Source of the DNA: Candidatus Margulisiibacteriota bacterium
GTDB taxonomy: Bacteria; Margulisbacteria; WOR-1; JAHJIW01
Direction of reading: 5' to 3'
DNA length: 43,950 bases
NCBI GenBank assembly: GCA_041645285.1
Contig: JBAZQH010000001.1
Span: 1-43,950 of the forward strand
The notes under the pieces were generated by a model that was not told where the DNA came from, searched no databases, and worked only from the letters and a program-made list of their open reading frames with translations. The translations under genes were made by a program, and so were the position numbers. How positions within the stretch are numbered: position 1 is the first letter of the stretch; every line of letters starts with the position of its first letter. Of the stretch, positions 19,493-32,286 are shown one piece after another.

Positions 19493-19494
19493 GC

Positions 19495-20100
19495 TTACCA
19501 GTGTTCGCGGAAAATAACCTCGCGGCGGCAGGCGGGGCATAAGATTTTGACCGATGACCCGCGGCGGTGAATATTATCCTTGGGTTCTCCGCGGCCCAGC
19601 AGGCCTAATTCCCTTTGTTCGGCGATTAGCAGTGTTGGATTGCTAAATGCCAGCGGCCCCATTTTGTCGTGGATCCACGTTAGATGCTCTTTGGCAGAAA
19701 TTATGGCTCCGCATTTTTCGCACAAGACCAATTCTTTTTCAATTTCCGTATGCGCAGCAGATATATCGGTAGTGGCCAGGTCGTATTCCAGGGTTAGGCG
19801 GATACCTTTGCCGGTAATGCAGTCGCGTTCGCACTGACCGCAATACAAACAGCGCTCCTGGTGATGAGTTAAGCGGCGCAATTTAGCGGCGGCATTATCC
19901 TCCACGTCAATTGCGCGTGCCGGGCAAACTTCACTGCAGGCCCCGCACCCCACGCACTCTTCTTTATAATATTTGGGCACACCGCGAAACCCCTCCGGCG
20001 GGATGGACGGCGCAAAAGGAAATTTGCTGGTAAAAGGACCAACCCATAAGGCCTTTACGGCCTCAATAATTTCACGAACCTTAGGTAACTTAATTTTCAT
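19495..20100 (-). CDS. hydrogenase 4Fe-4S subunit (NuoI/HycF/MbhN-like)
   Basis: Two ferredoxin motifs, CVGCGACSEVCP and CLYCGQCERDC, plus a C-terminal CEKCG...CPAC Zn-ribbon-like extension. It is the last gene of the operon and overlaps the upstream gene by 4 nt. Confidence 0.85.
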   Translation of the reverse strand: MKIKLPKVREIIEAVKALWVGPFTSKFPFAPSIPPEGFRGVPKYYKEECVGCGACSEVCPARAIDVEDNAAAKLRRLTHHQERCLYCGQCERDCITGKGIRLTLEYDLATTDISAAHTEIEKELVLCEKCGAIISAKEHLTWIHDKMGPLAFSNPTLLIAEQRELGLLGRGEPKDNIHRRGSSVKILCPACRREVIFREHW

Positions 20101-21833
20101 TTTTTGTTATTCCTTAATTTAAAGGCCGCAAACACAAAAACCCCGCCTAAAATCAGCCAGGCAACCGCAATGTTAAATATTGCCGCCAAAGACAACTGGG
20201 GCAGGGCCAGATTTTTTAATGCAGTAATTGTGCCGGCGAAAGCCGCCGGCGCGGCTAAGGTTGGGGTAGGTATCAGCTCCGAATATTGGGCATAGCGGTT
20301 GATATCTAATACGGAGATGACGGCCGGGTTAAGCAGCTGGCTAATTATCAACGGATAAAAAATTCCGCAGAGCACACACAGCACGGCTAAAAAGACCATG
20401 GCGACCTGCATTGGGGCCGGGACTTCTTTAATCTGTTGCAGGTCAGGGGTGGACCCGGCGGAAGTGGAGCCAACTGCCGCGGATTCAACGCCGGCGGAAC
20501 CAAAAAATACGTATTTTTGAATTTTGGCGAAAGAGGCCAAGGTTAAAATGCTGACCACGGCCGCCAGCGCTGCATATAAATATTGCCCGGCAAAAACGGC
20601 CGCAAAAATAATTAAAAGTTTGCTCCAAAATCCGTTAAAAGGCGGGATTCCGGAGATGGACAGAGAGGCCACCAATGACGTGGCGGCGGTTACCGGCATT
20701 TTTTTGGAAAGGCCGCCCAGTTTTTTTAAGTCCCGGGTGCCGGTTGCGTATTCCACCGCGCCAGCGTTTAAAAATAAGAGCGACTTAAAAACCGAATGGT
20801 TGATCAAATGGAAAATCCCGCCCAATATTCCCAGCGGCGTTCCCAACCCGATCCCTAATAGGATATACCCCATCTGGCTGATGCTGTGCCAGGCCAAAAG
20901 GCGCTTGAAGTCCCACTGGGCCAGCGCCAAAAGCACGCCTACCACCATGGAAATTACTCCCAGGGTGATAAGAATTTGAGAAACTTGCGGTGTCAGGCCA
21001 AAAACGCTGAAAACAATGCGGGTGATAGCGTAAGCTCCGGCGGCCTTGATGGCCAGGCCGGAAAGGGCGGCCGAGATTGGTGCGGGAGCTGAAGGATGAG
21101 CATCCGGCAGCCACGTATGGAAAGGGACCAGTGCGGCTTTGATGCCAAAACCAGCCAGAAAAAGCGCCAACGCCAGAGGAATGCCGGGCAGGATATAGTT
21201 TGGCAATGCCGCGGCGCCGCTGGCCGGAGTTGGCAGTGTCGAATGTAAAAGTTGTGAAAGTTGCGGCAGGTTCAGTGTTCCGGCAAAGGTGTATACCAGA
21301 ACCACTCCCAAAAGGATCAGTAGTGAAGCCAATGATCCCAACAGCATATATTTTAGCGCGGCTTCCAGTTCTTCTTTTTCACAGCCAAAGGCCACCAGCG
21401 CGTAGGATGCCAGCGCCAGCAGTTCAATGAAGATATACAAATTGAACAAGTCCCCGCTTAATATAATTCCGTTCATGCCGGCTAACATCAGCAGGAGCAG
21501 GGCATAGTATTTGCCTTTAGCCGTGAATTTGTTGATATATGCAAAAGAATAAACCACAATGGCGAGCGCAATGATGGCCACGGTTAATAAAAGCAGGGAA
21601 CTTAATCCGTCCAGGATCAAATTGATCCCCAGTATTCCGTTGCCCAAACAGTAAACCTGCCCGGCAGTGGCTGCTCCGGCAATATAAAACCCGCTGATTA
21701 ATCCCAGCAAGAGCAAAATTGTGATTATGGCCGCGGCATCCAAAAACCAGCGCGCCCAGCGTGCCAGCAATAAGACCGCAAAGGCAGAAAATACCGGGAT
21801 CAAAACCAACGCGGCAATTAATATTGGCTGCAT
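20097..21833 (-). CDS. proton/sodium-translocating antiporter-like subunit (MrpD/NuoN/MbhH-like)
   Basis: 578-aa polytopic protein with motif FHTWLPDAHPSAPAPISAALSG, typical of the NuoL/M/N-MrpA/D family. Confidence 0.9.
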   Translation of the reverse strand: MQPILIAALVLIPVFSAFAVLLLARWARWFLDAAAIITILLLLGLISGFYIAGAATAGQVYCLGNGILGINLILDGLSSLLLLTVAIIALAIVVYSFAYINKFTAKGKYYALLLLMLAGMNGIILSGDLFNLYIFIELLALASYALVAFGCEKEELEAALKYMLLGSLASLLILLGVVLVYTFAGTLNLPQLSQLLHSTLPTPASGAAALPNYILPGIPLALALFLAGFGIKAALVPFHTWLPDAHPSAPAPISAALSGLAIKAAGAYAITRIVFSVFGLTPQVSQILITLGVISMVVGVLLALAQWDFKRLLAWHSISQMGYILLGIGLGTPLGILGGIFHLINHSVFKSLLFLNAGAVEYATGTRDLKKLGGLSKKMPVTAATSLVASLSISGIPPFNGFWSKLLIIFAAVFAGQYLYAALAAVVSILTLASFAKIQKYVFFGSAGVESAAVGSTSAGSTPDLQQIKEVPAPMQVAMVFLAVLCVLCGIFYPLIISQLLNPAVISVLDINRYAQYSELIPTPTLAAPAAFAGTITALKNLALPQLSLAAIFNIAVAWLILGGVFVFAAFKLRNNKK

Positions 21834-21843
21834 AGTTTATCCT

Positions 21844-22149
21844 TTAATCAGAGTATTCTTTCAATTGATTGATTTTCGAAATATCCAGTGTTTGATTTGT
21901 ATGGTTAACGCGCACGCTGATGGCGGTCAACAAAATTAGCGATGCCAGCCCTATCGTCAGTGTCACCATCGCCAGCTCAGTAATTAACGGGTTAACGCGG
22001 CTCCCGTTAAAACCAACCAGGACCATCAGTAAACTGACGGCGTATTCGGCCAGCACCAGGCCAATGATTACTTTTACCAGATTTTTTTGGATCAGCATGC
22101 ACAGGATTCCGCTGCAAAACAGGCCGCCGCATAAATAAAAAATTAACAT
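21844..22149 (-). CDS. small membrane subunit (MnhC/NuoK/MbhG-like)
   Basis: 101 aa with three hydrophobic helices; its position between MnhB-like and MrpD-like genes matches Mrp/Mbh operons. Confidence 0.65.
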   Translation of the reverse strand: MLIFYLCGGLFCSGILCMLIQKNLVKVIIGLVLAEYAVSLLMVLVGFNGSRVNPLITELAMVTLTIGLASLILLTAISVRVNHTNQTLDISKINQLKEYSD

Positions 22150-22170
22150 ATTAAATTCCTTCTTATCTTT

Positions 22171-22557
22171 CTAACCTCGGTCTTTTAATTTTTCAAAAGC
22201 CAAGAGAGCGCGTAAGGCCAAATTTAGTCCGGCGGCTACCAATAGCGCCACGATCAAGTTTAAACCGATCAGTGCAAAATCGCCGCCGGGTAAAAATGGG
22301 AAAGCGGCCCGGCCCAGCAGGAGGCAAAAGCACAAACCCGCCAGAGCAAAAAATACGCCGGTCAAATAGGCGCTTAAGGTTTTGGTAGGATCTTCTTTGG
22401 GAACGCCCAGGTTAATAAAAAACAAAGCCGCGGCCATCACCAGCCCGCCGGACAATCCGTCGCCAACTCCAGTGGAGCAAGCCAGCGCCAGGTACAGCCC
22501 AAAAGCCAGGGCACCAAAGCCGATGGTGCGGATTAATATTTTAGTTATCGTAGACAT
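22171..22557 (-). CDS. MnhB-domain membrane subunit (MbhE-like)
   Basis: 128 aa and polytopic. GVGDGLSGG sits at the position of the MnhB GGGF-x-GG motif. Confidence 0.65.
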   Translation of the reverse strand: MSTITKILIRTIGFGALAFGLYLALACSTGVGDGLSGGLVMAAALFFINLGVPKEDPTKTLSAYLTGVFFALAGLCFCLLLGRAAFPFLPGGDFALIGLNLIVALLVAAGLNLALRALLAFEKLKDRG

Positions 22558-23062
22558 CGCGTTCGTTCAATGCCTTTCTGCCTTTTAATCTCAAGACCGC
22601 GGCCGCGCCAATGGTGGCGGCAGTTAAAACGGCAACCAGTCCCGCTAGATCCCAGAGGCGCGCGCCAAAGAGAAGTGATGTGTTTTGGAGAGCCGCTTTG
22701 GTTTCTGCCGTAGTGGTTTCGGTTGACTGCGGCATTAGCTCAACCACCGTAAAGATAATGGCAAAAATGATCAGCAAAACCGCAATGGCGCCGCCCCAAT
22801 CTTTTAATGTTTTAGGATAGTTTTGGTTATCTCTGGCAGCTTTGGCCGCGCGCGGTAAAATCAACAAGACCATGGCTTCAAATACCAAAAGTGAAATGGC
22901 CAGGTCCGGTGCATTGAGCAAAAGGAAGATCACGCATAAAAATAATCCAGTGATGCCCAGGGAGGAAATCGCAACCATTAAATTGCGCGCCAGGGTGGCC
23001 AAGAGTGCCCCGCCCAGCATCAAAATCATTAAGGTAATCAAACACGTATACATGTCAGCCAA
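22541..23062 (-). CDS. MbhD/DUF4040-like membrane subunit (MrpA C-terminal/MrpB-related)
   Basis: 173 aa and polytopic. LLLNAPDLAISLLVFEAMV resembles the APDVALTE motif of MbhD/DUF4040. Confidence 0.65.
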   Translation of the reverse strand: MADMYTCLITLMILMLGGALLATLARNLMVAISSLGITGLFLCVIFLLLNAPDLAISLLVFEAMVLLILPRAAKAARDNQNYPKTLKDWGGAIAVLLIIFAIIFTVVELMPQSTETTTAETKAALQNTSLLFGARLWDLAGLVAVLTAATIGAAAVLRLKGRKALNERDVYDN

Positions 23063-24868
23063 TTATCCTTTCACCAGAAAATATAATATAGCCAAAAACC
23101 CGGCCAGGCACCAGAGCAGATAAGTTTGTACCAATCCCCGGTGGAACCAGCGCAAAAAATCACCTAGTCCAAAAACCAGGCCTTTTAACGGTTCGTATAT
23201 GTCAATCCATTGGCTTTTTGCCAGTCGATAAATAAAGCGCACCGGCCTAACCGTCTGGAGCGTATTGTAAAATTCGTTGCCGGAGACCTTGGTATGAATT
23301 TTTTCCCCTCCCAAAAATGGGGCGGCGGTGTGGAATTTTTGGGTGCGGGTGGCCGCAAAGTAGGCCAGGAAACCGGTCAACAGCCCCAGACAAAGCAATC
23401 CGGCGGCCAGTGTCGGGTCCCATGATCCAACAAAATCAACGGTCGTGGGCAGGGCTTGAAAAATAAAATATGGCAAAGGCAGCTGAAAAGCCAAAACCCC
23501 AAAGAGGATACAAAGAATTGCTAACGTTACCATGGGAATCCACATGGTTGCCGGGACTTCCTTTACGCCTGGCCGTGAGGCAGTGCTTTGGCTAAAGAAA
23601 GCGGCGTGCAACAGTTTAGTAAAAGAAGCCATGGTCAAAATACTGCCCAGCATTGCACACAAAAGCCAGATAACCCAGAGGTTGTTTTGGGAATCTAAAA
23701 TCCCCTGGTAGATCATCCATTTGGAAACAAAACCGTTCAAAGGCGGGACGCCGGAAATGGCCAGCGCACAAATTAACGCGGAAAAAAACGTGATTGGCAT
23801 GGCGGCGGTCAGCCCACCCATGTCTTTCATTTCGGTTAGTTTAGTGCGAAATTCAATGGCCCCGCCGCATAAAAATAGGCAAGTTTTGTAAATGGCATTA
23901 TTGAGCATATGGAAGAGCCCTCCGGCAATTCCAACCGGGACCGCGGTCCCAATGCCGATTAACATATAACCCACCTGGCTGACTGCATGGTATGACAATA
24001 ATTTTTGAAAATTATGCTGCTGCAGCGCCATCAACACTGCGCAAATAAGAGTTAGCGACCCGATTGCCAAGAGAAATATTGAGATGCCCGAATTGGGCTG
24101 GATAACGAAAATATCCAGAGATAACCGTGCCAGGAAATAAATTCCAATCAATTTGTCCAGTGAAGCCGGGAGGTAGGCCATGACGGTGGCGGGAGTCACG
24201 GTTGCGGATTCAGGAACCCAGGAAGAAAACGGCAAAGCTCCGGCTTTAGCCAGCGCCCCGGAAACCAGTAAAAGATAGGCGCTGATGGTTAAGGGATGAT
24301 TGAGCGGCAGGCCCAGGGCTTGCAGATTGAAAGTCCGCGCCATATAAAAAACCATGGCGGTGCCCAAAATCATCAGGGCGTCGGTCCCGCCCACAATAAT
24401 GAATGTTTTTTTAGCGGCGGCGGCCGCGGTAACCGTATCATTAATTCCAATCAGCCGGTACAGGGTAAATCCGGAAAATCCCCAAAAAACCAGCAGGGTT
24501 AGCAGGTCGCCTGCCAAAACCGTGCCGGCCGCCGATGCCAGGGTTAATAAAACGTAGCAATAGTATGAGTTGAGTTTTCGGTGGCCTTGCATAAAACTTT
24601 GCGAGTACAAAATGATCAAAAAGGCAAAAAACGCAATTGCAAAAAGCACATAGGCATTAAAAGTATATGCCCTTAACCCAAACAGCAAGTGAAGCGGGGA
24701 AGAGTCCTGCAGAAAAACTGAACGTTCTCCCGCAAAAATAATCAGGCCGGAAAAATAAACGACGGCGATGGAGGCCAGTAGTGCCAGCCAACGCGCCCAT
24801 TTTCCGGCGAACCGGCAGATTATGCCAGCCAGCAAGGGAATTAAGATTGTGTATAATAATATATTCAT
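23063..24868 (-). CDS. antiporter-like subunit (NuoL/MrpA/HyfB-like)
   Basis: 601-aa polytopic protein with family core ...FSSWVPESATVTPATVMAYL... and ...LLSYHAVSQVGYMLIGIG.... Its start overlaps the stop of the large-subunit gene (4 nt). Confidence 0.88.
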   Translation of the reverse strand: MNILLYTILIPLLAGIICRFAGKWARWLALLASIAVVYFSGLIIFAGERSVFLQDSSPLHLLFGLRAYTFNAYVLFAIAFFAFLIILYSQSFMQGHRKLNSYYCYVLLTLASAAGTVLAGDLLTLLVFWGFSGFTLYRLIGINDTVTAAAAAKKTFIIVGGTDALMILGTAMVFYMARTFNLQALGLPLNHPLTISAYLLLVSGALAKAGALPFSSWVPESATVTPATVMAYLPASLDKLIGIYFLARLSLDIFVIQPNSGISIFLLAIGSLTLICAVLMALQQHNFQKLLSYHAVSQVGYMLIGIGTAVPVGIAGGLFHMLNNAIYKTCLFLCGGAIEFRTKLTEMKDMGGLTAAMPITFFSALICALAISGVPPLNGFVSKWMIYQGILDSQNNLWVIWLLCAMLGSILTMASFTKLLHAAFFSQSTASRPGVKEVPATMWIPMVTLAILCILFGVLAFQLPLPYFIFQALPTTVDFVGSWDPTLAAGLLCLGLLTGFLAYFAATRTQKFHTAAPFLGGEKIHTKVSGNEFYNTLQTVRPVRFIYRLAKSQWIDIYEPLKGLVFGLGDFLRWFHRGLVQTYLLWCLAGFLAILYFLVKG

Positions 24869-26512: not shown

Positions 26513-26952
26513 TTTTTACCCAATATTTCCATTGCTTTCACAATTCCTAACATCATGGCCTCCGGTTTGGGCGGGCAGCCCGGCACATAGACATCGACCG
26601 GTATGTAATCTGACAGCGGCCCCGGCACGTTGTAGCTGTCCCGGAAAATGTTGCCGGAAGGGCAGGTGCCAATGGCGACCACGGCCTTGGGGTGGGGGGT
26701 TTGCGCGTAAACTTCCTTCAGGCGGGCGGCAATCTGCCGGTTTACCGAACCCGTTACTAGTAAAATGTCAGCGTGGCGGGGAGAACCCACCAGTACAATG
26801 CCAAAACGCTCAATGTCAAATTTGGGAGTTAGGCAATCTAAAATTTCAATGTCGCAGTTATTGCAGGCCGAAGCCCCTACGTGATAAACCCAGGGAGATT
26901 TTGTCAGTCCCCATTTTTTTAAGCTTTGCGTGTTAAATTTTGACCCGTGCAC
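26509..26952 (-). CDS. [NiFe] hydrogenase small subunit (NuoB/HycG/MbhJ-like)
   Basis: Cluster N2-type cysteines are in context: GASACNNCDIE ... GSPRHADILLVTG ... AIGTCP ... VPGCPP. Confidence 0.92.
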   Translation of the reverse strand: MHGSKFNTQSLKKWGLTKSPWVYHVGASACNNCDIEILDCLTPKFDIERFGIVLVGSPRHADILLVTGSVNRQIAARLKEVYAQTPHPKAVVAIGTCPSGNIFRDSYNVPGPLSDYIPVDVYVPGCPPKPEAMMLGIVKAMEILGKK

Positions 26953-26958
26953 TTATGT

Positions 26959-27870
26959 TTATGCTCCCATCATTGCCAAAATTAGCGCCAGCGTTGCTAC
27001 AATTGTTACCGGTCCCCAAAAAAACCTTAAGGCCTGGTCAATCCGCAATCTGGGATTGGTATTTTTTATTACGATAATCAACACCAGGATGCTGCAGTAT
27101 TTTAACACAATCACCGGGATCGAAACCCAGCCGGAAATACTCAAACCGCCGCAGAAAAGGGCAATTAAAAACAAGGGAAGCGTATAGAGCAAAATTGCTT
27201 TGGCCAGCTTAAATAACATCAGCGGCGCGCCGGAATATTCCAAAAGGACTCCACTGGAAATTTCCTGCTCGGCTTCCGCTAAATCAAAAGGCACTAAGCC
27301 CAGCTTGGCCTGGATGCAGAGCAGTGCGGCGCAAAATGCCAGGATTCCGGAAAAACTGAAAATAATTGGCTGGGCGGCCTGGGCGGCGGCGATTCCTTCC
27401 AGCATGATCGAATGGGTTTTTAGCACCACGGTAAAAATTGAAAGTAAAAAGGGCAGTTCGTAGGCCAGGATTAATTTCATTTCGCGGCTGGCGCCCAAGG
27501 CCGCGACGGGATTGTTGGCAGTAAAGCCCGCCATAATCAAAGCCAGGGAGGGGATGGTTAAAAAGTATAGAATTACGATCAGGTCTCCCCAAAATGGAGT
27601 CCACAGCAGTCCCGCCGCAAAAGCCGCGGCGGCCAAGGCCACCGTGGGCCAGAGTAAAAAGTAAAAAACAGAAGCCCCTTCGGGGATAAGGATTTCTTTG
27701 AAAAAAAGTTTACAACAGTCGGCGAACGGCTGAAACCAGGGCGGTCCAACGCGGTATTGCAGGCGGGCCGTAACTTTGCGGTCAACCCAGCAAGCTAATA
27801 GCCCAGCGACCGCGGCAAATAACAGGCCGGGGAAAAGCAGAAAGTTAAATAATATTGTTAAGAAATTCAT
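26959..27870 (-). CDS. membrane subunit NuoH/HycD/MbhM-like
   Basis: Motif DRKVTARLQYRVGPPWFQPFADCCKLFFKE matches the NuoH-family signature. ATG 27870 has GGAG 9 nt upstream; the ORF-track start 27885 is GTG. Confidence 0.88.
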   Translation of the reverse strand: MNFLTILFNFLLFPGLLFAAVAGLLACWVDRKVTARLQYRVGPPWFQPFADCCKLFFKEILIPEGASVFYFLLWPTVALAAAAFAAGLLWTPFWGDLIVILYFLTIPSLALIMAGFTANNPVAALGASREMKLILAYELPFLLSIFTVVLKTHSIMLEGIAAAQAAQPIIFSFSGILAFCAALLCIQAKLGLVPFDLAEAEQEISSGVLLEYSGAPLMLFKLAKAILLYTLPLFLIALFCGGLSISGWVSIPVIVLKYCSILVLIIVIKNTNPRLRIDQALRFFWGPVTIVATLALILAMMGA

Positions 27871-27900
27871 TGAAATCAGCTCCACTTTTGCGCAATGTTT

Positions 27901-28611
27901 TTACGAAAACTTGCTTTTCAGCTCCTCAATCATGGCAACATTTTTCTTGGATTTTTCGTCCATCGGGTCAATTTCAATCGCTTTTATAAAATGATTCAGG
28001 GCATGGTCGACATCCCCTTTAGTGTAATAGTTAAGCCCCAGCTGGTAATGGCCGGCGGCCGATTCCGGGCATTGTCCGATAAATTTTTCAAAGGCCTGGA
28101 TGGCGTCGTTATTTTTGCCTTCACGCGAGAGGGCAATGCCTAAATGATAATAAGCAATAGCCAGGTGCGGTTCTCTTTTGATGACTGCGTTAAAGTGTTC
28201 GATGGCTTCCTTTAATTTACCGGCATAATAATAAGTCAGTCCCAGCCAGTAGGCGGCAATATTCAGGTTAGGGTTGATTTTCAGGGCGTTTTCAAATGAT
28301 TTGGCGGCTTCCTCCAGTTTTCCGCGGCGGTAAAGTGCAATTCCCAGCTCATAATGCGCACCGGCATATTGGGGATTGCAGTGCAGGGCTTCGCGGTATT
28401 CGGCAATGGCTTCGTCCAGCATGGTTTGGCGGTAATAAATACTGCCCAAGCTTTGGTGCGCAATGGCGTTATTGGGATCCAATTTGATGGCATCCAGGTA
28501 GGCCTGGATGGCATCTTTGGTCTTGCCGGAGCGCAGTAAACTGCAGGCGCAATCCATCCTTTCTTCGGCTGCATTCTTGGGTGTTACCGGACATTTTTTT
28601 TCTTCTTCCAT
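27901..28611 (-). CDS. TPR repeat protein
   Basis: About six tandem 34-aa repeats, for example AIQAYLDAIKLDPNNAIAHQSLG, AIAEYREALHCNPQYAGAHYELG, AAKSFENALKINPNLNIAAYWLG. Confidence 0.88.
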   Translation of the reverse strand: MEEEKKCPVTPKNAAEERMDCACSLLRSGKTKDAIQAYLDAIKLDPNNAIAHQSLGSIYYRQTMLDEAIAEYREALHCNPQYAGAHYELGIALYRRGKLEEAAKSFENALKINPNLNIAAYWLGLTYYYAGKLKEAIEHFNAVIKREPHLAIAYYHLGIALSREGKNNDAIQAFEKFIGQCPESAAGHYQLGLNYYTKGDVDHALNHFIKAIEIDPMDEKSKKNVAMIEELKSKFS

Positions 28612-28623
28612 AAAAACTCCTCC

Positions 28624-29106
28624 TTATCTTCTGCGACCCAGGGCAAAACTTTGTAAACGGTTTGATAATAAAATTTTATTTGAATCCGCCACTGCGTCAT
28701 CATCTTCAAAGCTCAAGGCCCCGGAAGTGCAGGCCTGGACACAGCGCGGTTTTTCCCCCGCCCGGAGTTTATCAATGCACAAATTGCATTTGGGGGCGAT
28801 ATGCTTGCCTAAATTGATATCGATTACCCCAAAAGGGCAGGCGGCGGCGCAGGATTTACAGCCCACGCACATGAATTTGCTCCGTCTGACTATTCCGGTA
28901 TCAATTTCCTTTTGCATGGCCTGGTTTGGGCAAGCGGCAGCGCAGGATGGCTGGTCGCAATGCAAGCAATGCAAAGGCAGGCGAGCGGCACCCAGCACGT
29001 CGGCATGGCCCAGCAGGGTTTGGTAGTGATGGCTAAAATAACACGCGGCGGCGCAGGACTTGCAGCCGCAGCATTTATCCAAATGTAAGTAAATTCGTTT
29101 TGCCAT
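28624..29106 (-). CDS. 4Fe-4S polyferredoxin (HycB/HydN-like)
   Basis: Four Cys clusters: CCGCKSCAAAC, CLHCDQPSCAAACP, CVGCKSCAAACP, CNLCIDKL...CVQAC. Confidence 0.88.
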   Translation of the reverse strand: MAKRIYLHLDKCCGCKSCAAACYFSHHYQTLLGHADVLGAARLPLHCLHCDQPSCAAACPNQAMQKEIDTGIVRRSKFMCVGCKSCAAACPFGVIDINLGKHIAPKCNLCIDKLRAGEKPRCVQACTSGALSFEDDDAVADSNKILLSNRLQSFALGRRR

Positions 29107-29109
29107 TTT

Positions 29110-30249
29110 TTACCTGGTTCCTGGTTTGGTCAATCCATTAAAAATTTTAACGTAACTGCCGGCGCCGCCAAAGGGTTGAACCACCGGTACAACGGTGCGC
29201 AACTGTTCACCGCAAAAAATAAAACTGCCTCCGCATTCCTGCGGCATGGCCACTGGGAACACAATGTGGGCTTGTTGGGTTAAGTCGGTTTCCAGTAGAT
29301 CGGCGGCAACCAGGCAGGTTAGCGCGTTTAATTTTGGAAAAATTTCGGCCTCCAGCCCGGCTCCAAGTGCCAGTAGTACCTTTAGCTTGTTTCCCGCGAG
29401 GGCCGCCCTTACGCTAAGCTTTTGCAAGGTTTGGCGGGCGCCGTAAGTATTGGAAGCAGTGTGGAAGCATAAATATTTTTTCCCGGTTTTTTGCGCCAGC
29501 TGCCAGCCGATCGCTTCCAGCTGCGGGTCGTCATTGGGGGAAGATACTACTACCATTCCAGATTGGGCAGTTGACAGAATTTTTTCGGCGGCAGCGAGCG
29601 CCTCTGTCAATTCTGCCGGCAGTTGCCCCGCGCCATCTTTGGTGGTAAGCGGCGCCTTGAAAAACTGGGTAGCAAACCAGCTGGTGTGCGAAGCCGACTC
29701 GTCAATCACAATAATTTGGTTGCCCTTTTTGCCGTATTTTACGGCGTTGATAGAGCGTGAAAAACAGGGAGTTTTTTCCAGAACATCTCCCAGGATAACC
29801 ATTGTTTCCAGCGCGGGGATTTGTGCAAAAAGGGCATAATCGGGATTAACCAATGCGGTTTGCACCCCTTCAATTTCAAAATAAGGCGTCTGGATTGTTT
29901 CTGCGCAAAATTTTGCGGCGGCTTCCAACTCTTCCAGTGAAGCATGCCCACTGATTAAAACTCCAACTTCATGGCCTGCTACCTTGCCTAATTGGGAGGC
30001 CAATTCTTTTAGCGCGGCCTCCCAGGTGGTGTTCACCGCTTCGTTGTTAATTTTAATTGACGGGATTGAAAGGCGCCCAGGGTTGGTTAGCATCCCCAAT
30101 AAATCGTGGCCCCGCGGGCAAAGTGAGCCAAAATTAATCGGGTTATCGGTATCGTAGGCAATTTCCACGACATTATTGCCGTTTACTACAAAGCCCACGC
30201 CACAGCCCATTGAACAGTTAGTGCAAATAGTTTTTTTGATTGTTACCAT
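29110..30249 (-). CDS. molybdopterin-oxidoreductase-family protein, short form (formate dehydrogenase alpha / NuoG-like, probably non-catalytic)
   Basis: N-terminal 4Fe-4S Mo/W-bisMGD-type motif CTNCSMGCGV...GSLCPRG. The protein is only 379 aa with no C-terminal dinucleotide-binding domain. The stop is TAA, so it is not a Sec read-through. Confidence 0.75.
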   Translation of the reverse strand: MVTIKKTICTNCSMGCGVGFVVNGNNVVEIAYDTDNPINFGSLCPRGHDLLGMLTNPGRLSIPSIKINNEAVNTTWEAALKELASQLGKVAGHEVGVLISGHASLEELEAAAKFCAETIQTPYFEIEGVQTALVNPDYALFAQIPALETMVILGDVLEKTPCFSRSINAVKYGKKGNQIIVIDESASHTSWFATQFFKAPLTTKDGAGQLPAELTEALAAAEKILSTAQSGMVVVSSPNDDPQLEAIGWQLAQKTGKKYLCFHTASNTYGARQTLQKLSVRAALAGNKLKVLLALGAGLEAEIFPKLNALTCLVAADLLETDLTQQAHIVFPVAMPQECGGSFIFCGEQLRTVVPVVQPFGGAGSYVKIFNGLTKPGTR

Positions 30250-31061
30250 GGATCAGGTATATCCTTTATTTGATCCCACGTAAACACCGGCCCGTCTTTG
30301 CAGGCCAGATACGGGCCTACGTTGCAGTGGAAACACATCCCCACCCCGCAGCTCATGTTTTTTTCCATTGAAAGGTTGATTTGATCGGCGGCAAAACCCA
30401 AATCCAGCATTTTTTTAGTGACAAATTTCATCATGATAGGCGGGCCGCACACCACGCCGACGGCATCGGCCGGGTTGACGCCCGTGTTTTCCAAAATGGT
30501 GGTGACGATGCCAACTTTTCCGCCCCAGGTACTGTCGCCGCGGTCAACCGTAATGTCAAAATCAACTTTTTCCTTATTTTTCCATTCTTCCAGCAGTGTT
30601 TTGAAGGCAATGTCCTGCGGTGAGCGTGAGCCAAAACGGATAAATATTTTTTTATAATTTTGGATGTTGTGGAAAAGAGCGAACAACAGTGCGCGCAGGG
30701 GCGCCAACCCCACGCCGCCCCCCACCACAAAAATTTCCCGGCCCTTCCACTGGTCAATTTTATAATACGCGTTGCCTAAAGGGCCTCGCAGGCCCACCTG
30801 GTCGCCGATTTTGGCCTGATGCAAGAGTGCGGTAACACTGCCGGCTTTCATGATGGAAAACTCAAGGGTTTCGGTTTCGTACATTGATGAAGAAGGCGTA
30901 AACGGCGCTTCGCCCAATCCCGGCAAAGAAACCTGCATGAATTGTCCGGCGGCAAAACTAATTTTTTCTTCCGGCCGCAGGACAAAGGTCTTGATATTCG
31001 GCGTTTCGTCGATTATCTTCTCGATTTTAGCTTTGATGGGTTTGTATGGATTATTTAGCAT
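30243..31061 (-). CDS. FAD/NAD(P)-binding 2Fe-2S oxidoreductase (sulfhydrogenase gamma HydG / AsrB / PyrK-like)
   Basis: The protein starts MLNNPYKPIKAKIEKIIDETPNIKTF.... The flavin-reductase fold is indicated by ...FMQVSLPGLGEAPFT... and VVGGGVGLAPL. The C-terminal 2Fe-2S motif is CGVGMCFHCNVG...CKDGPVF. The ORF-track start 31241 would overlap the upstream gene by 143 nt. Confidence 0.85.
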   Translation of the reverse strand: MLNNPYKPIKAKIEKIIDETPNIKTFVLRPEEKISFAAGQFMQVSLPGLGEAPFTPSSSMYETETLEFSIMKAGSVTALLHQAKIGDQVGLRGPLGNAYYKIDQWKGREIFVVGGGVGLAPLRALLFALFHNIQNYKKIFIRFGSRSPQDIAFKTLLEEWKNKEKVDFDITVDRGDSTWGGKVGIVTTILENTGVNPADAVGVVCGPPIMMKFVTKKMLDLGFAADQINLSMEKNMSCGVGMCFHCNVGPYLACKDGPVFTWDQIKDIPDPW

Positions 31062-31098
31062 AGTTTTTAAACAACCAGAAACCTTTCCCTTTTCTTTA

Positions 31099-32148
31099 CT
31101 ATTCCAGCCGCGCCGATAGTACCGCGGCTTTAGCGAGCTCTTTAAATACCTGGCGCATATCAATTTTGCCGCAGCAAGCATCGATACAGCGCCCGCAGCC
31201 AACACAAGAATACCGGCCAATGCGGGAAACCATATAGTCAAACTTACATTGATAACGGTTTTGCAGACGGGAAAAAAGCGTGGCCCGGTCGTTGGCCCCG
31301 CCGGCTACCCGCGTGTAGGCGCCGTGCAAACAATTGTCCCAAACCTTGATTTTTTCCGCGGCCCCCTTATTAATTTGGTCAATCAACAAAAAACAGGTGC
31401 AGCTGGGACAGGCACGGTTGCAGGCCTGGCAGTCAACGCAGGTCCGCGTAATTTTTCTCCAAACCCCTTCGTTTTCAAGGGTGTGGCGATGGAGGTCGGT
31501 CAGGTCGGCGGTGTTGGCAAATTCCTGGTTTAAGGCATCAACTTTTTGAACGATTATGGTACGGTTTGCAAATTGTTCTTCCAGTGCTTGAGTGGCATCA
31601 ATAAACAGGGAGGCGTGTTCTTTTAGCAATTTTTCGCCTTTGGCGGAGCCCGCTTCGACCACAAAACCATCTGTAACCGGCGATAAATTGAGGTCGAAAC
31701 CTTTTTCGGGGTAGGGTTGCCCTTTGACCAGGCGGCAAAAACAAGTAGGGGCGGCATCGGTGCAGTCGGCGCTGATGATTAGGGCATTTTGGCGCCGGGA
31801 TAAATAAAATGGGTCTTTAATTTCCCCTGCGCCATAAACCTGGTCAATTACTTCAAGGGCAGACAGGTCGCAGGCTTTGGCCCCCAGGACAACGAAAGAA
31901 AAATCGCCGGCTCCTCCCCCGGGCTTGGGGAGTTCCAGCACATTTTCTGCAATTGGGTAAAAAAACTGCCGGATTGAATTAACGGTGCGGTATTGGCCAA
32001 CTTCGATATTTTGCAGGTTGTCGGCGGTGATTTTTTTGAATGCGAAAACATCGTAAACTTTAAGGGGAGCAAAAACTGGATAATTTGACAGCAGAGAGCC
32101 GATTAATTTCTGGAAGTCGTCCCGGCCGATGAATACATTATTGGTCAA
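31099..32148 (-). CDS. 4Fe-4S dicluster protein (sulfhydrogenase beta HydB / AsrA-like)
   Basis: Cys motifs CVDCQACNRACPSCTCF and CVGCGRCIDACCGKI. The TTG start at 32148 has SD GAGGAA 6 nt upstream. The longer ORF to 32373 has no family-like N-terminus and would run through the promoter region. Confidence 0.8.
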   Translation of the reverse strand: MTNNVFIGRDDFQKLIGSLLSNYPVFAPLKVYDVFAFKKITADNLQNIEVGQYRTVNSIRQFFYPIAENVLELPKPGGGAGDFSFVVLGAKACDLSALEVIDQVYGAGEIKDPFYLSRRQNALIISADCTDAAPTCFCRLVKGQPYPEKGFDLNLSPVTDGFVVEAGSAKGEKLLKEHASLFIDATQALEEQFANRTIIVQKVDALNQEFANTADLTDLHRHTLENEGVWRKITRTCVDCQACNRACPSCTCFLLIDQINKGAAEKIKVWDNCLHGAYTRVAGGANDRATLFSRLQNRYQCKFDYMVSRIGRYSCVGCGRCIDACCGKIDMRQVFKELAKAAVLSARLE

Positions 32149-32196
32149 GGCACATTCCTCGATTATTCTAACCCGCAAAATGGCGGCGGGAAATAC

Positions 32197-32226
32197 ATTA
32201 TATAAGGGAAAAACCAGGGTTGTCAA
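32197..32226 (-). promoter_or_regulatory. near-consensus sigma70-type promoter for the hydrogenase operon
   Basis: On the - strand the sequence reads TTGACA (32226-32221), an 18-nt spacer, then TATAAT (32202-32197). This is about 50 nt upstream of the TTG start at 32148. Confidence 0.5.
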
Positions 32227-32286
32227 ACGGCCCAAATAACCCGCCTCCCCGCTGAAATTTATCCATAAAAATGACGAAATATATAT

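What the first reader, a model, noticed from the sequence alone, without database searches (positions are those of the whole stretch)
19495..32226. 15-gene Mrp-linked group-4 [NiFe] hydrogenase operon with a sulfhydrogenase-beta/gamma-like NAD(P)H module instead of a formate or CO input module
**Operon content**
- One - strand operon, read from a near-consensus promoter at 32197-32226, has mostly 4-nt overlaps or gaps of less than 40 nt.
- The membrane-bound hydrogenase core comprises NuoB/C/D/H/I-like subunits. The large subunit keeps both Ni-Fe cysteine pairs, RICGICSTSH and DPCYCCTER.
- Two antiporter-like subunits and MnhB/MbhD/MnhC-like subunits are also present.
- At the 5' end sit a HydB/AsrA-like Fe-S protein, a HydG/AsrB-like FAD/NAD(P) 2Fe-2S protein, a truncated molybdopterin-oxidoreductase-like protein and a HycB-like polyferredoxin.

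**Why it stands out**
- Well-characterised Mrp-linked group-4 enzymes take electrons from ferredoxin, formate (catalytic FdhA) or CO (CooS).
- Here the only obvious substrate-binding module is a pyridine-nucleotide-type flavoprotein plus a NuoG-like scaffold.
- This arrangement would resemble an intermediate between Mbh-type hydrogenases and respiratory complex I. It could be an ion-translocating H2:NAD(P)+ oxidoreductase.
- No MrpE/F/G-like genes are seen.
Basis: partly seen in the sequence, partly recalled or inferred. Interest (0 to 1): 0.65.

Follow-up and report, generated by a model that had tools for sequence, protein, structure and literature searches.

The report
NAD(P)H-linked membrane [NiFe] hydrogenase operon
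This is a real 15-gene operon for a complex-I-like membrane hydrogenase that seems to exchange electrons with NAD(P)H rather than formate or CO, but the same gene layout has already been described from genomes (2019, 2026) and is widespread, so this is a new member of a known, biochemically untested kind.

Summary
Window 19495-32226 (- strand) holds 15 tightly packed genes behind a perfect sigma-70 promoter.

The Fdh-like protein lacks the catalytic Cys/Sec-His and the dinucleotide-binding domain. It is by far the least conserved subunit.

In 60 of 60 related loci with enough flank, spread over more than ten phyla, the beta/gamma genes precede the hydrogenase core. The Fdh-like gene occurs in only 9 of 60. 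NAD(P)H is therefore the conserved partner, and the Fdh-like protein is most likely a relic or scaffold.

MrpEFG are present in 50 of 56 relatives and lost only in the Margulis/Saganbacteria lineage, this window included.

The architecture is not new. The Saganbacteria RX5A orthologue was called "enigmatic" in 2019. A 2026 paper describes group-4b clusters with SHI-beta/gamma and Cys-less Fdh. No biochemistry exists.

Best reading: an ion-translocating NAD(P)H:H+/H2:NAD(P)+ oxidoreductase (confidence about 0.55).

The parts
32197..32226 (-). Sigma-70-type promoter TTGACA-18 nt-TATAAT, about 40-50 nt upstream of the first gene
   Evidence: 12/12 consensus match. It is the only match above 9/12 in 19400-32300. 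Sequence read.
31099..32148 (-). SHI-beta / HydB / AsrA-like Fe-S subunit (349 aa from TTG 32148). Cys patterns fit three [4Fe-4S] sites.
   Evidence: PF17179 Fer4_22 at 6.7e-25. NCBIfam ShyB 7e-53, HydB 2e-45, AsrA 3e-32, all below equivalog cut-offs. PDB 9nez_B (P. furiosus sulfhydrogenase 1 beta) 2.6e-40 over residues 24-330. RBS and start read.
30243..31061 (-). SHI-gamma / HydG / AsrB-like flavoprotein (272 aa) with FAD-binding, NAD(P)-binding and [2Fe-2S] domains
   Evidence: PF00970, PF00175 and PF10418. PDB 9nez_C (sulfhydrogenase 1 gamma) 3.7e-48. GGGxGxAPxR, the 2Fe-2S cysteines and a basic residue aligned to the SHI-gamma Arg are conserved in 68-69 of 69 clade members.
29110..30249 (-). 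Truncated, non-catalytic formate-dehydrogenase-like protein (379 aa). It keeps only the N-terminal [4Fe-4S] motif and part of the Mo-pterin fold.
   Evidence: PF04879 at 8.8e-14 and weak PF00384; no PF01568. Best full-length PDB match is the cofactor-less Fdh-like domain of StnC, 8oh5_C. The FDH 'CARL(C/U)H' site aligns to non-conserved residues. Median 30% identity to orthologues, the lowest of all subunits.
28624..29106 (-). HycB/CooF/FdnH-type ferredoxin (160 aa) with four Cys motifs, consistent with four [4Fe-4S] clusters
   Evidence: PF13247 Fer4_11 at 6.6e-21. PDB FdnH 1kqf_B 5e-19, HDCR HycB3 7qv7_A 2e-18, FHL HycB 7z0s_B 6e-12. Cys motifs read.
27901..28611 (-). Cytoplasmic TPR-repeat protein (236 aa) inside the operon. 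It is either a lineage-specific extra subunit or an assembly factor.
   Evidence: TPR families up to 3.7e-43. Orthologues sit at the same position in 8 Margulis/Saganbacteria loci at 58-65% identity, as conserved as the core subunits. It is absent from RX5A and from all other phyla.
26959..27885 (-). NuoH / HycD / MbhM-like membrane subunit
   Evidence: PF00146 at 1.2e-62.
26509..26952 (-). NuoB-like hydrogenase small subunit (proximal [4Fe-4S])
   Evidence: PF01058 at 2.8e-29. NuoB subfamily 1e-39.
26069..26512 (-). NuoC-like subunit
   Evidence: PF00329 at 4.3e-23.
24865..26088 (-). [NiFe] hydrogenase large subunit (NuoD-like), with both CxxC pairs and a 33-residue C-terminal extension after DPCYCCTER
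   Evidence: PF00346 at 4.6e-68 and PF00374 at 5.6e-19. PDB HycE 7z0s_E 1.6e-86 and MbhL 6cfw_L 1.2e-85. Motifs and extension.
23063..24868 (-). Antiporter-like subunit A (601 aa, with C-terminal extension). TM7, TM8 and TM12 Lys are kept; the TM5 Glu is replaced by Gly.
   Evidence: PF00361 at 2.7e-47. MbhH 6cfw_H 1.3e-46; full-length match to the 618-residue MBS chain 6u8y_X. Gly in 69/73 and Lys in 73/73 clade members.
22541..23062 (-). MbhD / MrpA-C-terminal (NuoJ-like) membrane subunit
   Evidence: PF13244 MbhD at 9.5e-11, plus PF00499. MrpA residues ~600-770 at 5.5e-10.
22171..22557 (-). Small membrane protein, weakly MnhB-like
   Evidence: PF04039 at 1.8e-3, below cut-off. No NCBIfam hit. 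The assignment is tentative.
21844..22149 (-). NuoK / MrpC / HyfE-like membrane subunit
   Evidence: PF00420 at 8.4e-16. MrpC and HyfE models.
20097..21833 (-). Antiporter-like subunit B (MrpD/MbhH-like, 578 aa) with TM5 Glu and TM7, TM8 and TM12 Lys all conserved
   Evidence: PF00361 at 3.5e-70. MbhH 6cfw_H 4e-72, with alignment showing the conserved residues.
19495..20100 (-). HycF / HyfH / NuoI-like 2x[4Fe-4S] subunit (201 aa) with a clade-specific C-terminal CxxC...CPxCRR motif
   Evidence: Fer4 families. HycF-type model PRK12387 at 1.2e-27. The C-terminal four-Cys motif is conserved in the 11 loci inspected, spanning several phyla.

Best explanation
The operon encodes a membrane-bound, complex-I-related group-4 [NiFe] hydrogenase. 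Its cytoplasmic redox partner is NAD(P)H, handled by a module homologous to the beta and gamma subunits of Pyrococcus furiosus soluble hydrogenase I.

**Inferred electron path**
- NAD(P)H to FAD and [2Fe-2S] on the gamma-like subunit.
- Then three [4Fe-4S] clusters on the beta-like subunit.
- Then, possibly via the single [4Fe-4S] of the Fdh-like protein, four clusters of the HycB-like ferredoxin.
- Then two clusters of the HycF/NuoI-like subunit, the [4Fe-4S] of the NuoB-like small subunit, and finally the [NiFe] site.
- The path may run in either direction.

**Coupling and roles**
- The redox reaction is coupled to H+ or Na+ movement through the NuoH-like subunit, two antiporter-like subunits and small Mrp/NuoJ/NuoK-like subunits.
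- The Fdh-like protein is a degenerate, cofactor-less relic of a formate-hydrogenlyase-type input module. It now serves at most as an Fe-S relay or scaffold, comparable to the Mo-pterin-like part of NuoG.
- The direction depends on H2 pressure. It would be either H2 uptake making NAD(P)H while exporting ions, or gradient-assisted disposal of NAD(P)H as H2.

**Shown versus inferred**
- Shown: gene identities, cofactor motifs, and conservation of the module across the clade.
- Inferred: subunit contacts, NADPH versus NADH preference, ion coupling and direction.
For: **Identity of the hydrogenase and the NAD(P)H module**
- The large subunit has intact Ni-Fe motifs and is equally similar to HycE and MbhL.
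- The beta- and gamma-like subunits match SHI chains 9nez_B and 9nez_C at 2.6e-40 and 3.7e-48.
- In the gamma-like subunit, the FAD site, the NAD(P) site (GGGxGxAPxR), a basic residue aligned to the SHI-gamma Arg and the 2Fe-2S cysteines are kept in 68-69 of 69 clade members.

**Synteny**
- The beta/gamma genes lie directly upstream of the hydrogenase core in 60/60 related loci with at least 4.6 kb of flank. These come from Margulisiibacteriota, Omnitrophota, Planctomycetia, Bacteroidales, Zixibacteria, Clostridia and others.
- No other substrate-binding module is conserved across these loci.

**The Fdh-like protein is not catalytic**
- It lacks the catalytic residues and PF01568.
- It is present in only 9/60 loci.
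- It shrinks from 581-634 aa to about 467 aa to 379 aa across lineages.
- It is the least conserved subunit.

**Ion translocation**
- The antiporter-like subunits keep the conserved charged residues of MbhH.

**Operon structure and literature**
- The genes are compact, sit behind a perfect promoter, and show no above-chance internal terminators.
- PMC13582414 independently links SHI-beta/gamma homologues to NADPH in group-4b clusters.
Against: - There is no biochemical, transcript or structural evidence for any clade member.
- The beta/gamma-like proteins score far below the NCBIfam equivalog cut-offs. They are homologues, not demonstrated orthologues, of the NADPH module.
- H2 formation from NAD(P)H is endergonic under standard conditions (established thermodynamics), so the physiological direction is unclear.
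- Ferredoxin could still dock on the HycB-like or HycF-like subunits, as it does in Mbh or Ech. MAG papers have assumed this (PMC6349859; PMC8542988).
- This window lacks MrpE/F/G, and one antiporter-like subunit lacks the TM5 Glu. Ion coupling may therefore differ from Mbh.
- I could not model the complex. The monomer model of the Fdh-like protein failed.
Confidence: 0.55

Rival explanations
1. Ferredoxin-driven Mbh-type H2-evolving ion pump. Reduced ferredoxin is the main donor, docking on the HycB/HycF-like ferredoxin subunits. The beta/gamma module is a side branch that lets the same complex also reduce NADP+ or accept NADPH, acting as a combined Fd:H+ and Fd:NADP+ oxidoreductase.
For: - The core is as similar to MbhL as to HycE, and the membrane arm is Mbh/Mrp-like.
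- Most relatives carry a full MrpEFG set.
- The authors of PMC6349859 hypothesised an Mbh-like function.
- PMC8542988 treats Mrp-linked Omnitrophota enzymes as ferredoxin-dependent.
Against: - Mbh needs no beta/gamma module, yet this clade has it in 60/60 loci. That argues it is integral rather than accessory.
- No ferredoxin gene or Fd-producing enzyme is encoded in the operon.
- Neither paper analysed the beta/gamma genes as the input site.
Confidence: 0.2
2. Three-terminal electron-confurcating or -bifurcating complex. The Fe-S network branches to the [NiFe] site, to the SHI-gamma-like NADPH site and to the Fdh-like protein, where an unidentified third substrate reacts. This is the proposal of PMC13582414.
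For: - AlphaFold3 models of related group-4b clusters show three branches (PMC13582414).
- The Fdh-like protein here keeps its [4Fe-4S] cysteines.
- A conserved TPR protein co-occurs with it in this lineage.
Against: - The Fdh-like gene is absent from 51/60 loci of this clade, while beta/gamma is universal.
- It lacks catalytic residues and the dinucleotide-binding domain, is truncated to 379 aa here, and evolves fastest.
- The operon contains none of the known bifurcating flavoprotein types (NuoF-, HdrA-, Etf- or NfnB/GltD-like). That these are the recognised bifurcating modules is established knowledge, not a test made here.
Confidence: 0.1
3. Sulfur-linked enzyme. The AsrA/AsrB-like pair feeds or receives electrons for sulfite, polysulfide or S0 reduction, as in anaerobic sulfite reductase or the sulfhydrogenase side activity. 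This would make the complex a membrane-bound sulfhydrogenase.
For: - NCBIfam AsrB 1.2e-58 and AsrA 3.2e-32.
- SHI was first described as a sulfhydrogenase (references cited in PMC8542988).
Against: - There is no AsrC/siroheme subunit in the operon.
- The beta-like subunit scores better against ShyB/HydB than against AsrA, and both subunits match solved SHI chains at 2.6e-40 and 3.7e-48.
- The large subunit keeps all four Ni-Fe cysteines, unlike the sulfur-reducing MBS homologue. That MBS lacks them is established knowledge, not tested here.
Confidence: 0.05
4. Formate hydrogenlyase. The Mo-pterin protein oxidises formate, and electrons pass via HycB to the hydrogenase, as in E. coli FHL or Thermococcus Mfh.
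For: - HMMs name the protein Fdh-alpha (TIGR01591 at 6.5e-21).
- The HycB- and HycF-like partners resemble FHL subunits.
Against: - The score is far below the 666-bit cut-off.
- The catalytic Cys/Sec-His is absent in every family member.
- PF01568 is missing and the protein is only 379 aa.
- The gene is absent from most of the clade.
Confidence: 0.02
5. Decaying or non-functional operon in this lineage. Loss of MrpEFG, absence of hycI/hyp genes nearby and the shrinking Fdh-like gene would indicate relaxed selection.
For: - MrpEFG, HycI and HypA are not in the window, although they are typical of relatives.
- The Fdh-like protein is truncated.
- A relative, L007, has lost all antiporter-like genes.
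Against: - All 15 ORFs are intact, and catalytic and cofactor motifs are conserved.
- The promoter is a perfect consensus match.
- MrpEFG loss is shared by several Margulis/Saganbacteria genomes that keep the rest intact.
- Maturation genes may lie elsewhere in the genome, since only 44 kb was seen.
Confidence: 0.05

Closest known systems
'Enigmatic' group-4 [NiFe] hydrogenase of Saganbacteria RX5A (Matheus Carnevali et al. 2019, PMC6349859, Supplementary Note 5)
   Same: Orthologous cluster, with a 69% identical large subunit (P0073, locus L083). The order is the same: asrA-like, asrB-like, Mo-pterin-like, cooF/hycB-like, nuoH, B, C, D, antiporter-like, small membrane subunits, antiporter-like, nuoI-like. 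It also has no MrpEFG.
   Different: RX5A has no TPR gene and has hycI directly downstream. Its Fdh-like protein is 468 aa against 379 aa here. The authors proposed only an 'Mbh-like' function and did not single out NAD(P)H.
Group-4b clusters with SHI-beta/gamma homologues and Cys/Sec-less Fdh (Front Microbiol 2026, PMC13582414)
   Same: The same combination of large and small subunits, HyfC/HyfE-like and antiporter subunits, ferredoxins, an Fdh-like protein lacking catalytic Cys/Sec, and SHI-gamma/beta homologues. NADPH is named as a substrate.
   Different: Their examples come from Chloroflexota, Desulfobacterota, Acidobacteriota and others. I could not test whether they fall in the same large-subunit clade. 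They propose bifurcation with a third substrate, whereas my survey shows the Fdh-like gene is dispensable in most of this clade.
Pyrococcus furiosus membrane-bound hydrogenase Mbh (group 4d, PDB 6CFW)
   Same: NuoB/C/D/H/I-like module plus an Mrp-type membrane arm. MbhL matches at 1.2e-85 and MbhH at 4e-72, with conserved Glu and Lys residues.
   Different: Mbh takes electrons from ferredoxin, has one antiporter-like subunit and has MbhA-C (MrpEFG). This operon has two antiporter-like subunits, no MrpEFG, and four extra cytoplasmic redox proteins.
E. coli formate hydrogenlyase FHL-1 (group 4a, PDB 7Z0S)
   Same: HycE matches at 1.6e-86. There are HycB-like and HycF-like ferredoxin subunits and an Fdh-type protein next to HycB. 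The large subunit has a C-terminal extension, implying HycI-type processing.
   Different: The Fdh-like protein here is non-catalytic and truncated. An NAD(P)H flavoprotein module is added, and the membrane arm is larger.
P. furiosus soluble hydrogenase I (group 3b sulfhydrogenase, PDB 9NEZ), beta and gamma subunits
   Same: Clear homology over the full length, with the same Fe-S, FAD, NAD(P) and 2Fe-2S motifs.
   Different: In SHI the beta/gamma pair docks on a soluble group-3 hydrogenase dimer. Here it is encoded with a membrane-bound group-4 enzyme. Scores are well below the equivalog cut-offs.
Respiratory complex I (Nuo)
   Same: Shared NuoB/C/D/H/I/J/K and L/M/N-type subunits, a pyridine-nucleotide input and a degenerate Mo-pterin-like Fe-S protein, as in NuoG.
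   Different: There is no NuoE/NuoF. The input flavoprotein is FNR/PyrK-type with FAD rather than FMN. The NuoD homologue still has the [NiFe] cysteines, so the acceptor is H+ rather than quinone.

Membership tests
Group 4 (energy-converting, complex-I-related) [NiFe] hydrogenases | Large subunit with the N-terminal RxCGxCxxxH and C-terminal DPCxxCxxH/R Ni-Fe-binding motifs | tested here: met
   RICGICSTSH and DPCYCCTER are present. PF00374 and PF00346 both hit.
Group 4 (energy-converting, complex-I-related) [NiFe] hydrogenases | Co-encoded NuoB-, NuoC-, NuoH- and NuoI-like subunits | tested here: met
   PF01058, PF00329 and PF00146, plus a HycF/NuoI-type model.
Group 4 (energy-converting, complex-I-related) [NiFe] hydrogenases | HydDB subgroup assignment (4a-4i) by large-subunit phylogeny | not testable with these tools
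   No HydDB classifier or reference set was available. The protein is equidistant from HycE (4a) and MbhL (4d). The literature calls similar clusters 4b (PMC13582414), and calls Mrp-linked Omnitrophota enzymes, possibly the same clade, 4g (PMC8542988).
Mrp-linked hydrogenases (Mbh/Mfh/Mch type) | MrpD/MrpA-type antiporter-like subunit(s) with conserved TM5 Glu and TM7/TM12 Lys | tested here: met
   Subunit B keeps all of these residues. Subunit A keeps the Lys residues but has Gly at the TM5 Glu position.
Mrp-linked hydrogenases (Mbh/Mfh/Mch type) | MrpB- and MrpC-like small membrane subunits | tested here: met
   MbhD/MrpA-C-terminal-like and NuoK/MrpC-like subunits are clear. The MnhB-like assignment is weak.
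Mrp-linked hydrogenases (Mbh/Mfh/Mch type) | MrpE, MrpF and MrpG homologues (MbhA-C) | tested here: not met
   tblastn with clade MrpE/F/G finds nothing in the window. They are present in 50/56 related loci and confirmed by Pfam.
Formate hydrogenlyase / formate-dependent group 4a/4b enzymes | Catalytic FdhH-type subunit with the Mo/W-ligating Cys or Sec followed by His | tested here: not met
   The 'CARL(C/U)H' site of 9t1s_L, 7qv7_S and 7bkb_D aligns to non-conserved, non-Cys residues in this protein and in its family profile.
Formate hydrogenlyase / formate-dependent group 4a/4b enzymes | Complete Mo-bisPGD fold, including the C-terminal dinucleotide-binding domain (PF01568) | tested here: not met
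   Only PF04879 and a weak PF00384 are found, in 379 aa. PF01568 is retained only in the Zixibacteria/L022 homologues.
SHI/SHII (group 3b) beta-gamma NAD(P)H module | Beta subunit homologous to HydB/ShyB with its Cys clusters | tested here: met
   9nez_B at 2.6e-40 over the full length, with conserved Cys motifs. Scores are below the equivalog cut-offs, so this is a homologue and not a proven orthologue.
SHI/SHII (group 3b) beta-gamma NAD(P)H module | Gamma subunit with FAD, NAD(P) and [2Fe-2S] sites | tested here: met
   Three Pfam domains. 9nez_C at 3.7e-48. Motifs are conserved in 68-69 of 69 clade members.
SHI/SHII (group 3b) beta-gamma NAD(P)H module | Measured NADPH (or NADH) oxidoreductase activity and nucleotide specificity | not testable with these tools
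   The only cue is a conserved Arg/Lys aligned to the SHI-gamma Arg. The SHI structure paper is not held in the library.
Anaerobic sulfite reductase AsrABC | AsrC siroheme catalytic subunit encoded with AsrA/AsrB | tested here: not met
   No siroheme or NIR_SIR protein is among the 15 products. AsrA and AsrB scores are below the cut-offs.
Respiratory complex I | NuoE/NuoF NADH-FMN input module and a quinone-reducing NuoD without Ni-Fe cysteines | tested here: not met
   There are no NuoE/F-like genes in the operon. The NuoD homologue keeps all four Ni-Fe cysteines.

The most novel reading that the evidence does not exclude
The whole clade may be a never-characterised class of ion-translocating NAD(P)H-dependent hydrogenase. 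At least 540 species-representative genomes hold a relative of the large subunit. The 80 best-matching loci span more than ten phyla, and 60/60 of those with enough flank carry the SHI-beta/gamma genes. Such an enzyme would be a hydrogen-evolving or hydrogen-consuming functional analogue of complex I. Many MAG studies currently book it as a ferredoxin-dependent Mbh. In the Margulis/Saganbacteria branch it would additionally have a dedicated TPR subunit and a fossil Fdh domain that parallels the origin of NuoG.
Probability: 0.45. Interest if true: 0.7.

Novelty: new member of a known kind. Interest (0 to 1): 0.4.

Why it matters
- If the NAD(P)H link and the ion coupling are real, fermenters in many uncultured phyla could dispose of NAD(P)H as H2, or gain NAD(P)H from H2. 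They could do so through one membrane complex that conserves or consumes ion-motive force.
- That would change how hydrogen and redox budgets are inferred from MAGs, where relatives are routinely annotated as ferredoxin-dependent Mbh.
- It would also provide a living example of a hydrogenase with a pyridine-nucleotide input module and a fossil Mo-pterin subunit. This bears on how complex I acquired its N-module.
- This window adds no new principle beyond two in-silico publications. Its value lies in the survey result (beta/gamma universal, Fdh-like dispensable) and in lineage-specific details: the TPR gene, the loss of MrpEFG and the extreme Fdh truncation.

Tried and rejected
- **AlphaFold2 model of the Fdh-like protein.** The permitted three-sequence alignment gave pLDDT 35 and pTM 0.29. 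The model is unusable, so no fold search was run.
- **Homologue search with the Fdh-like protein.** It returned only three proteins. This shows how divergent the protein is, but gave no alignment depth.
- **Maturation and Mrp genes in the window.** I searched for HycI, HypA and MrpE/F/G, and for a homologue of the large unannotated ORF that is divergently transcribed in RX5A. None was found.
- **HydDB subgroup.** It could not be assigned. No reference set was available, and the supplement of PMC13582414 is not held.
- **SHI structure paper.** Xiao et al. 2025 is not held, so nucleotide-specificity residues could not be checked against the structure.
- **Literature leads that proved irrelevant.** The Staphylothermus marinus mbh/mbx operons have no NADPH module. 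PMC7382037 had nothing relevant.
- **Formate hydrogenlyase and Asr-type sulfite reductase readings.** Both were rejected on missing defining features.
- **Longer ORF starts.** TTG 32373 for the beta-like gene lies upstream of the promoter. TTG 31241 for the gamma-like gene overlaps the previous gene by 143 nt, and its N-terminus is absent from all relatives.
- **The NJ tree.** It is midpoint-rooted, has no outgroup and no support values. I used it only to see that loci carrying the Fdh-like gene (including the Margulis/Saganbacteria branch) all fall on one side of the tree, not to infer ancestry.

Full report
**Observation**

The region 19495-32226 contains 15 consecutive ORFs on the - strand. 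Junctions are overlaps of 4-20 nt or gaps of at most 37 nt.

Pfam, NCBIfam and PDB searches give the following order from 5' to 3':
- a HydB/AsrA-like Fe-S protein (31099-32148);
- a HydG/AsrB-like FAD/NAD(P)/[2Fe-2S] flavoprotein (30243-31061);
- a 379-aa molybdopterin-oxidoreductase-like protein (29110-30249);
- a four-cluster HycB/FdnH-type ferredoxin (28624-29106);
- NuoH-, NuoB- and NuoC-like subunits;
- the [NiFe] large subunit (24865-26088);
- an antiporter-like subunit (23063-24868);
- MbhD/MrpA-C-terminal-like, weak MnhB-like and NuoK/MrpC-like small membrane proteins;
- a second antiporter-like subunit (20097-21833);
- a HycF/NuoI-like 2x[4Fe-4S] protein (19495-20100).

The large subunit carries RICGICSTSH and DPCYCCTER, followed by a 33-residue C-terminal extension.

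A 12/12 sigma-70 consensus, TTGACA-18-TATAAT, lies at 32226-32197. It is followed by a GAGGAA ribosome-binding site and a TTG start at 32148. Across the operon, promoter-like and terminator-like matches are no more frequent than in shuffled sequence, and none of the terminator-like hits is intergenic.

**Origin and relatives**

The large subunit is on record on three contigs, the longest a 62-kb ENA metagenome contig. Its closest homologues, at 65-81% identity, are from Candidatus Margulisiibacteriota and Saganbacteria (WOR-1), followed by Omnitrophota.

A scan of one genome per species found at least 540 genomes encoding a relative. The best 80 loci come from Margulisiibacteriota/Saganbacteria, many Omnitrophota, Planctomycetia, Bacteroidales, Zixibacteria, Clostridia, Latescibacterota, Elusimicrobiota, Aerophobetes and others, at 58-76% identity.

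Flanking genes in the window (acetate kinase, ApbE, a hexapeptide transferase, an OTCase-family gene) are also neighbours of the orthologous locus in Saganbacteria RX5A.

**Synteny survey**

This is the most informative result. I used tblastn with the 15 window proteins, plus MrpE/F/G, HycI and variant ferredoxins, against all fetched loci (Pfam checks).

| Feature | Count | Distribution |
|---|---|---|
| HydB/HydG-like pair directly upstream of the core | 60 of 60 loci with at least 4.6 kb upstream | All phyla sampled |
| Mo-pterin-like gene | 9 of 60 | Margulis/Saganbacteria branch, one Zixibacteria locus, one unclassified locus |
| TPR gene | 8 loci plus the window | Margulis/Saganbacteria loci only; absent from RX5A |
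| MrpE, F and G between the second antiporter-like gene and the NuoI-like gene | 50 of 56 loci reaching the NuoI-like gene | The six exceptions are all Margulis/Saganbacteria |
| hycI downstream | 37 of 56 | Not broken down by phylum |

- Where the Mo-pterin-like gene is present, the following ferredoxin is the HycB type. Nearly all other loci, and every one shown to lack the Mo-pterin-like gene, have a different roughly 165-aa Fer4_11 protein instead.
- The window also lacks MrpE, F and G, and none is found elsewhere in it.
- One relative, L007, has lost all antiporter-like genes.
- The window's operon is therefore a derived variant of a widespread clade. The hallmark of that clade is the beta/gamma module, not the Mo-pterin-like protein.

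**The NAD(P)H module**

- The two proteins match the solved P. furiosus sulfhydrogenase-I beta and gamma chains (9nez_B at 2.6e-40; 9nez_C at 3.7e-48) over essentially their full lengths.
- Against NCBIfam, the beta-like subunit scores higher on ShyB/HydB than on AsrA, while the gamma-like subunit's top hit is AsrB. All scores are below the equivalog cut-offs.
- In 69 clade members the gamma-like subunit keeps several features in 68-69 sequences. These are the flavin-site motif, GGGxGxAPxR, the Cx4Cx2C...C [2Fe-2S] ligands, and an Arg/Lys aligned to the Arg of NADPH-dependent SHI-gamma.
- Cys patterns in the beta-like subunit fit three [4Fe-4S] sites, as read from the sequence.
- The module is under purifying selection with its cofactor sites intact.

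**The Mo-pterin-like protein**

- It has the N-terminal [4Fe-4S] motif and part of the Molybdopterin fold, but no PF01568 domain.
- Single-sequence and family-profile alignments to solved formate dehydrogenases agree. The catalytic 'CARL(C/U)H' segment falls on non-conserved residues without Cys or His.
- The best full-length PDB match for the single sequence is the cofactor-less Fdh-like domain of StnC, 8oh5_C.
- The family shrinks stepwise. Zixibacteria/L022 forms are 581-634 aa and keep PF01568. Margulis/Saganbacteria forms are about 464-468 aa without it. This window has 379 aa, and there is one other short form at 67% identity.
- Its median identity to orthologues is 30%. That compares with 61-69% for the gamma-like, HycB-like, TPR, NuoB-like and large subunits.
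- It is best read as a relic of a formate-hydrogenlyase-type input module, retained as an Fe-S relay or scaffold. This parallels the Mo-pterin-like part of NuoG.
- A structure prediction was uninformative (pLDDT 35).

**Membrane arm**

- Antiporter-like subunit B aligns with MbhH at 4e-72 and keeps the TM5 Glu and the TM7, TM8 and TM12 Lys.
- Subunit A keeps the three Lys in 73/73 clade members, but has Gly at the TM5 Glu position in 69/73.
- These features argue for a working ion-translocation apparatus. With MrpEFG missing here, it resembles the Hyf/complex-I layout more than Mbh.

**Mechanism**

The best-supported model is an ion-translocating NAD(P)H:H+ / H2:NAD(P)+ oxidoreductase.
- Electrons pass from FAD and [2Fe-2S] on the gamma-like subunit to three clusters on the beta-like subunit.
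- They may then pass through the Fdh-like [4Fe-4S] to four clusters on the HycB-like ferredoxin.
- They continue through two clusters on the HycF-like subunit and the NuoB-like cluster to the [NiFe] site.

The subunit order is inferred from homology to FHL-1 (FdhF-HycB-HycF-HycG-HycE) and to SHI, not from a model of this complex.

By established thermodynamics the H2/NAD(P)+ couple offers only about 18 kJ/mol under standard conditions. Its sign depends on H2 pressure, so either direction is possible. I give this model 0.55.

**Rivals**

- A ferredoxin-driven Mbh-like pump with beta/gamma as a side branch (0.2).
- The three-terminal bifurcation model of PMC13582414 (0.1). This is disfavoured because the Fdh-like gene is missing from 51/60 loci and no known bifurcating flavoprotein type is encoded.
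- A sulfur-linked enzyme (0.05; no AsrC).
- A decaying operon (0.05; all ORFs and motifs are intact).
- Formate hydrogenlyase (0.02; the defining features are not met).

**Comparison with the literature**

- Matheus Carnevali et al. 2019 (PMC6349859) describe an 'enigmatic' group-4 hydrogenase in Saganbacteria RX5A. It has Mrp-like subunits, an unclassifiable molybdopterin oxidoreductase, and cooF-, asrA- and asrB-like genes. Its nearest relatives are in Zixibacteria and Omnitrophica, and the authors hypothesise an Mbh-like function.
- I fetched that locus (L083). Its large subunit is 69% identical to the window's and the gene order is the same, apart from the missing TPR gene and the longer Fdh-like protein.
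- A September 2026 paper (PMC13582414) reports a related pattern in group-4b clusters. Those whose Fdh lacks the catalytic Cys/Sec co-occur with SHI-gamma and SHI-beta homologues. It proposes an NADPH-linked bifurcating or confurcating complex from AlphaFold3 models.
- Williams et al. 2021 (PMC8542988) annotate Mrp-linked Omnitrophota hydrogenases as HydDB group 4g and as ferredoxin-dependent, without mentioning an NADPH module. Whether these are the same clade was not tested.
- No paper found reports biochemistry. The architecture is therefore known in silico and uncharacterised experimentally.

**Verdict**

This is a new member of a known kind.
- The claim of standing apart from described systems does not hold.
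- 'Mrp-linked' is only partly true for this window.
- Interest is 0.4. The enzyme class matters and is untested, but this window adds only lineage-specific details.

**Side observations**

The most notable is a HypC domain fused to a HydE-type radical-SAM enzyme (17059-18405).
- It lies on the same strand, just downstream of the operon.
- It scores above the HydE equivalog cut-off (272.5 bits against 254.6).
- The fusion recurs next to this hydrogenase operon in Margulis/Saganbacteria and Omnitrophota loci.
- More than 100 fused homologues are found, including in Elusimicrobiota and in DPANN-type archaea. Genomic context varies.
- One full-text search found no description of this fusion.

Noticed in passing
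window 17059-18405 (- strand): A 448-aa protein with an N-terminal HupF/HypC domain fused to a radical-SAM/BATS enzyme. It scores above NCBIfam's equivalog cut-off for the [FeFe]-hydrogenase maturase HydE (272.5 bits against 254.6). It sits next to a [NiFe] hydrogenase operon, and similar fusions flank the same operon in L006, L007, L009, L010, L044, L045, L062 and L063. More than 100 fused homologues occur in Margulis/Saganbacteria, Elusimicrobiota, Aenigmarchaeota and Altiarchaeota. One full-text search found no description. It is possibly a [NiFe]-cofactor maturation factor.
   Followed up: partly
window 27901-28611 (- strand): A TPR-repeat gene lies inside the operon, between the HycB-like and NuoH-like genes. 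It is 58-65% identical across 8 Margulis/Saganbacteria loci, as conserved as the core subunits. The N-terminal D-x-A-C-x-(C/L)-L-R motif is conserved. The gene is absent from RX5A and from other phyla. Its role as a subunit or assembly factor is unknown.
   Followed up: partly
window 19495-19650 (C-terminus of the NuoI/HycF-like protein): The C-terminal extension carries a CxxC...CPxCRR four-Cys motif, conserved in the 11 clade members inspected across several phyla. It could be a zinc ribbon or an extra metal site. The HycF-type profile does not cover it.
   Followed up: partly
window 23063-24868 (antiporter-like subunit A): The conserved TM5 Glu of MbhH/NuoL-type subunits is Gly here and in 69/73 clade members. 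The Zixibacteria-type members keep Glu. The TM7, TM8 and TM12 Lys are invariant.
   Followed up: yes
L007 9992-11778 (CAVYHE010000007.1, 189-kb contig): In a close relative the large-subunit gene is followed directly by the NuoI-like gene. All antiporter-like and small Mrp-like genes are missing, while the beta/gamma, Fdh-like, HycB-like, TPR and NuoH/B/C genes remain. This looks like an Ech-sized version of the same enzyme.
   Followed up: no
window 32287-35748 (+) and 18593-19492 (+): Two flanking ORFs have no Pfam match: a 1153-aa ORF transcribed divergently from the operon promoter, and a 299-aa ORF convergent with the operon's end. RX5A also has a large unannotated ORF (1032 aa) in the divergent position, but with no detectable similarity.
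   Followed up: partly
L026 5722-7626 and L022 1980-3725: The longer Fdh-like proteins of the Zixibacteria-type loci keep the PF01568 domain. However, they have C-x2-C-x3-D in place of the third cysteine of the N-terminal [4Fe-4S] motif.
   Followed up: no
window 3993-4916 (+) and 39502-40446 (+): There are two aspartate/ornithine carbamoyltransferase-family genes in one 44-kb window. The first lies in an arginine-biosynthesis cluster with argininosuccinate synthase and lyase.
   Followed up: no
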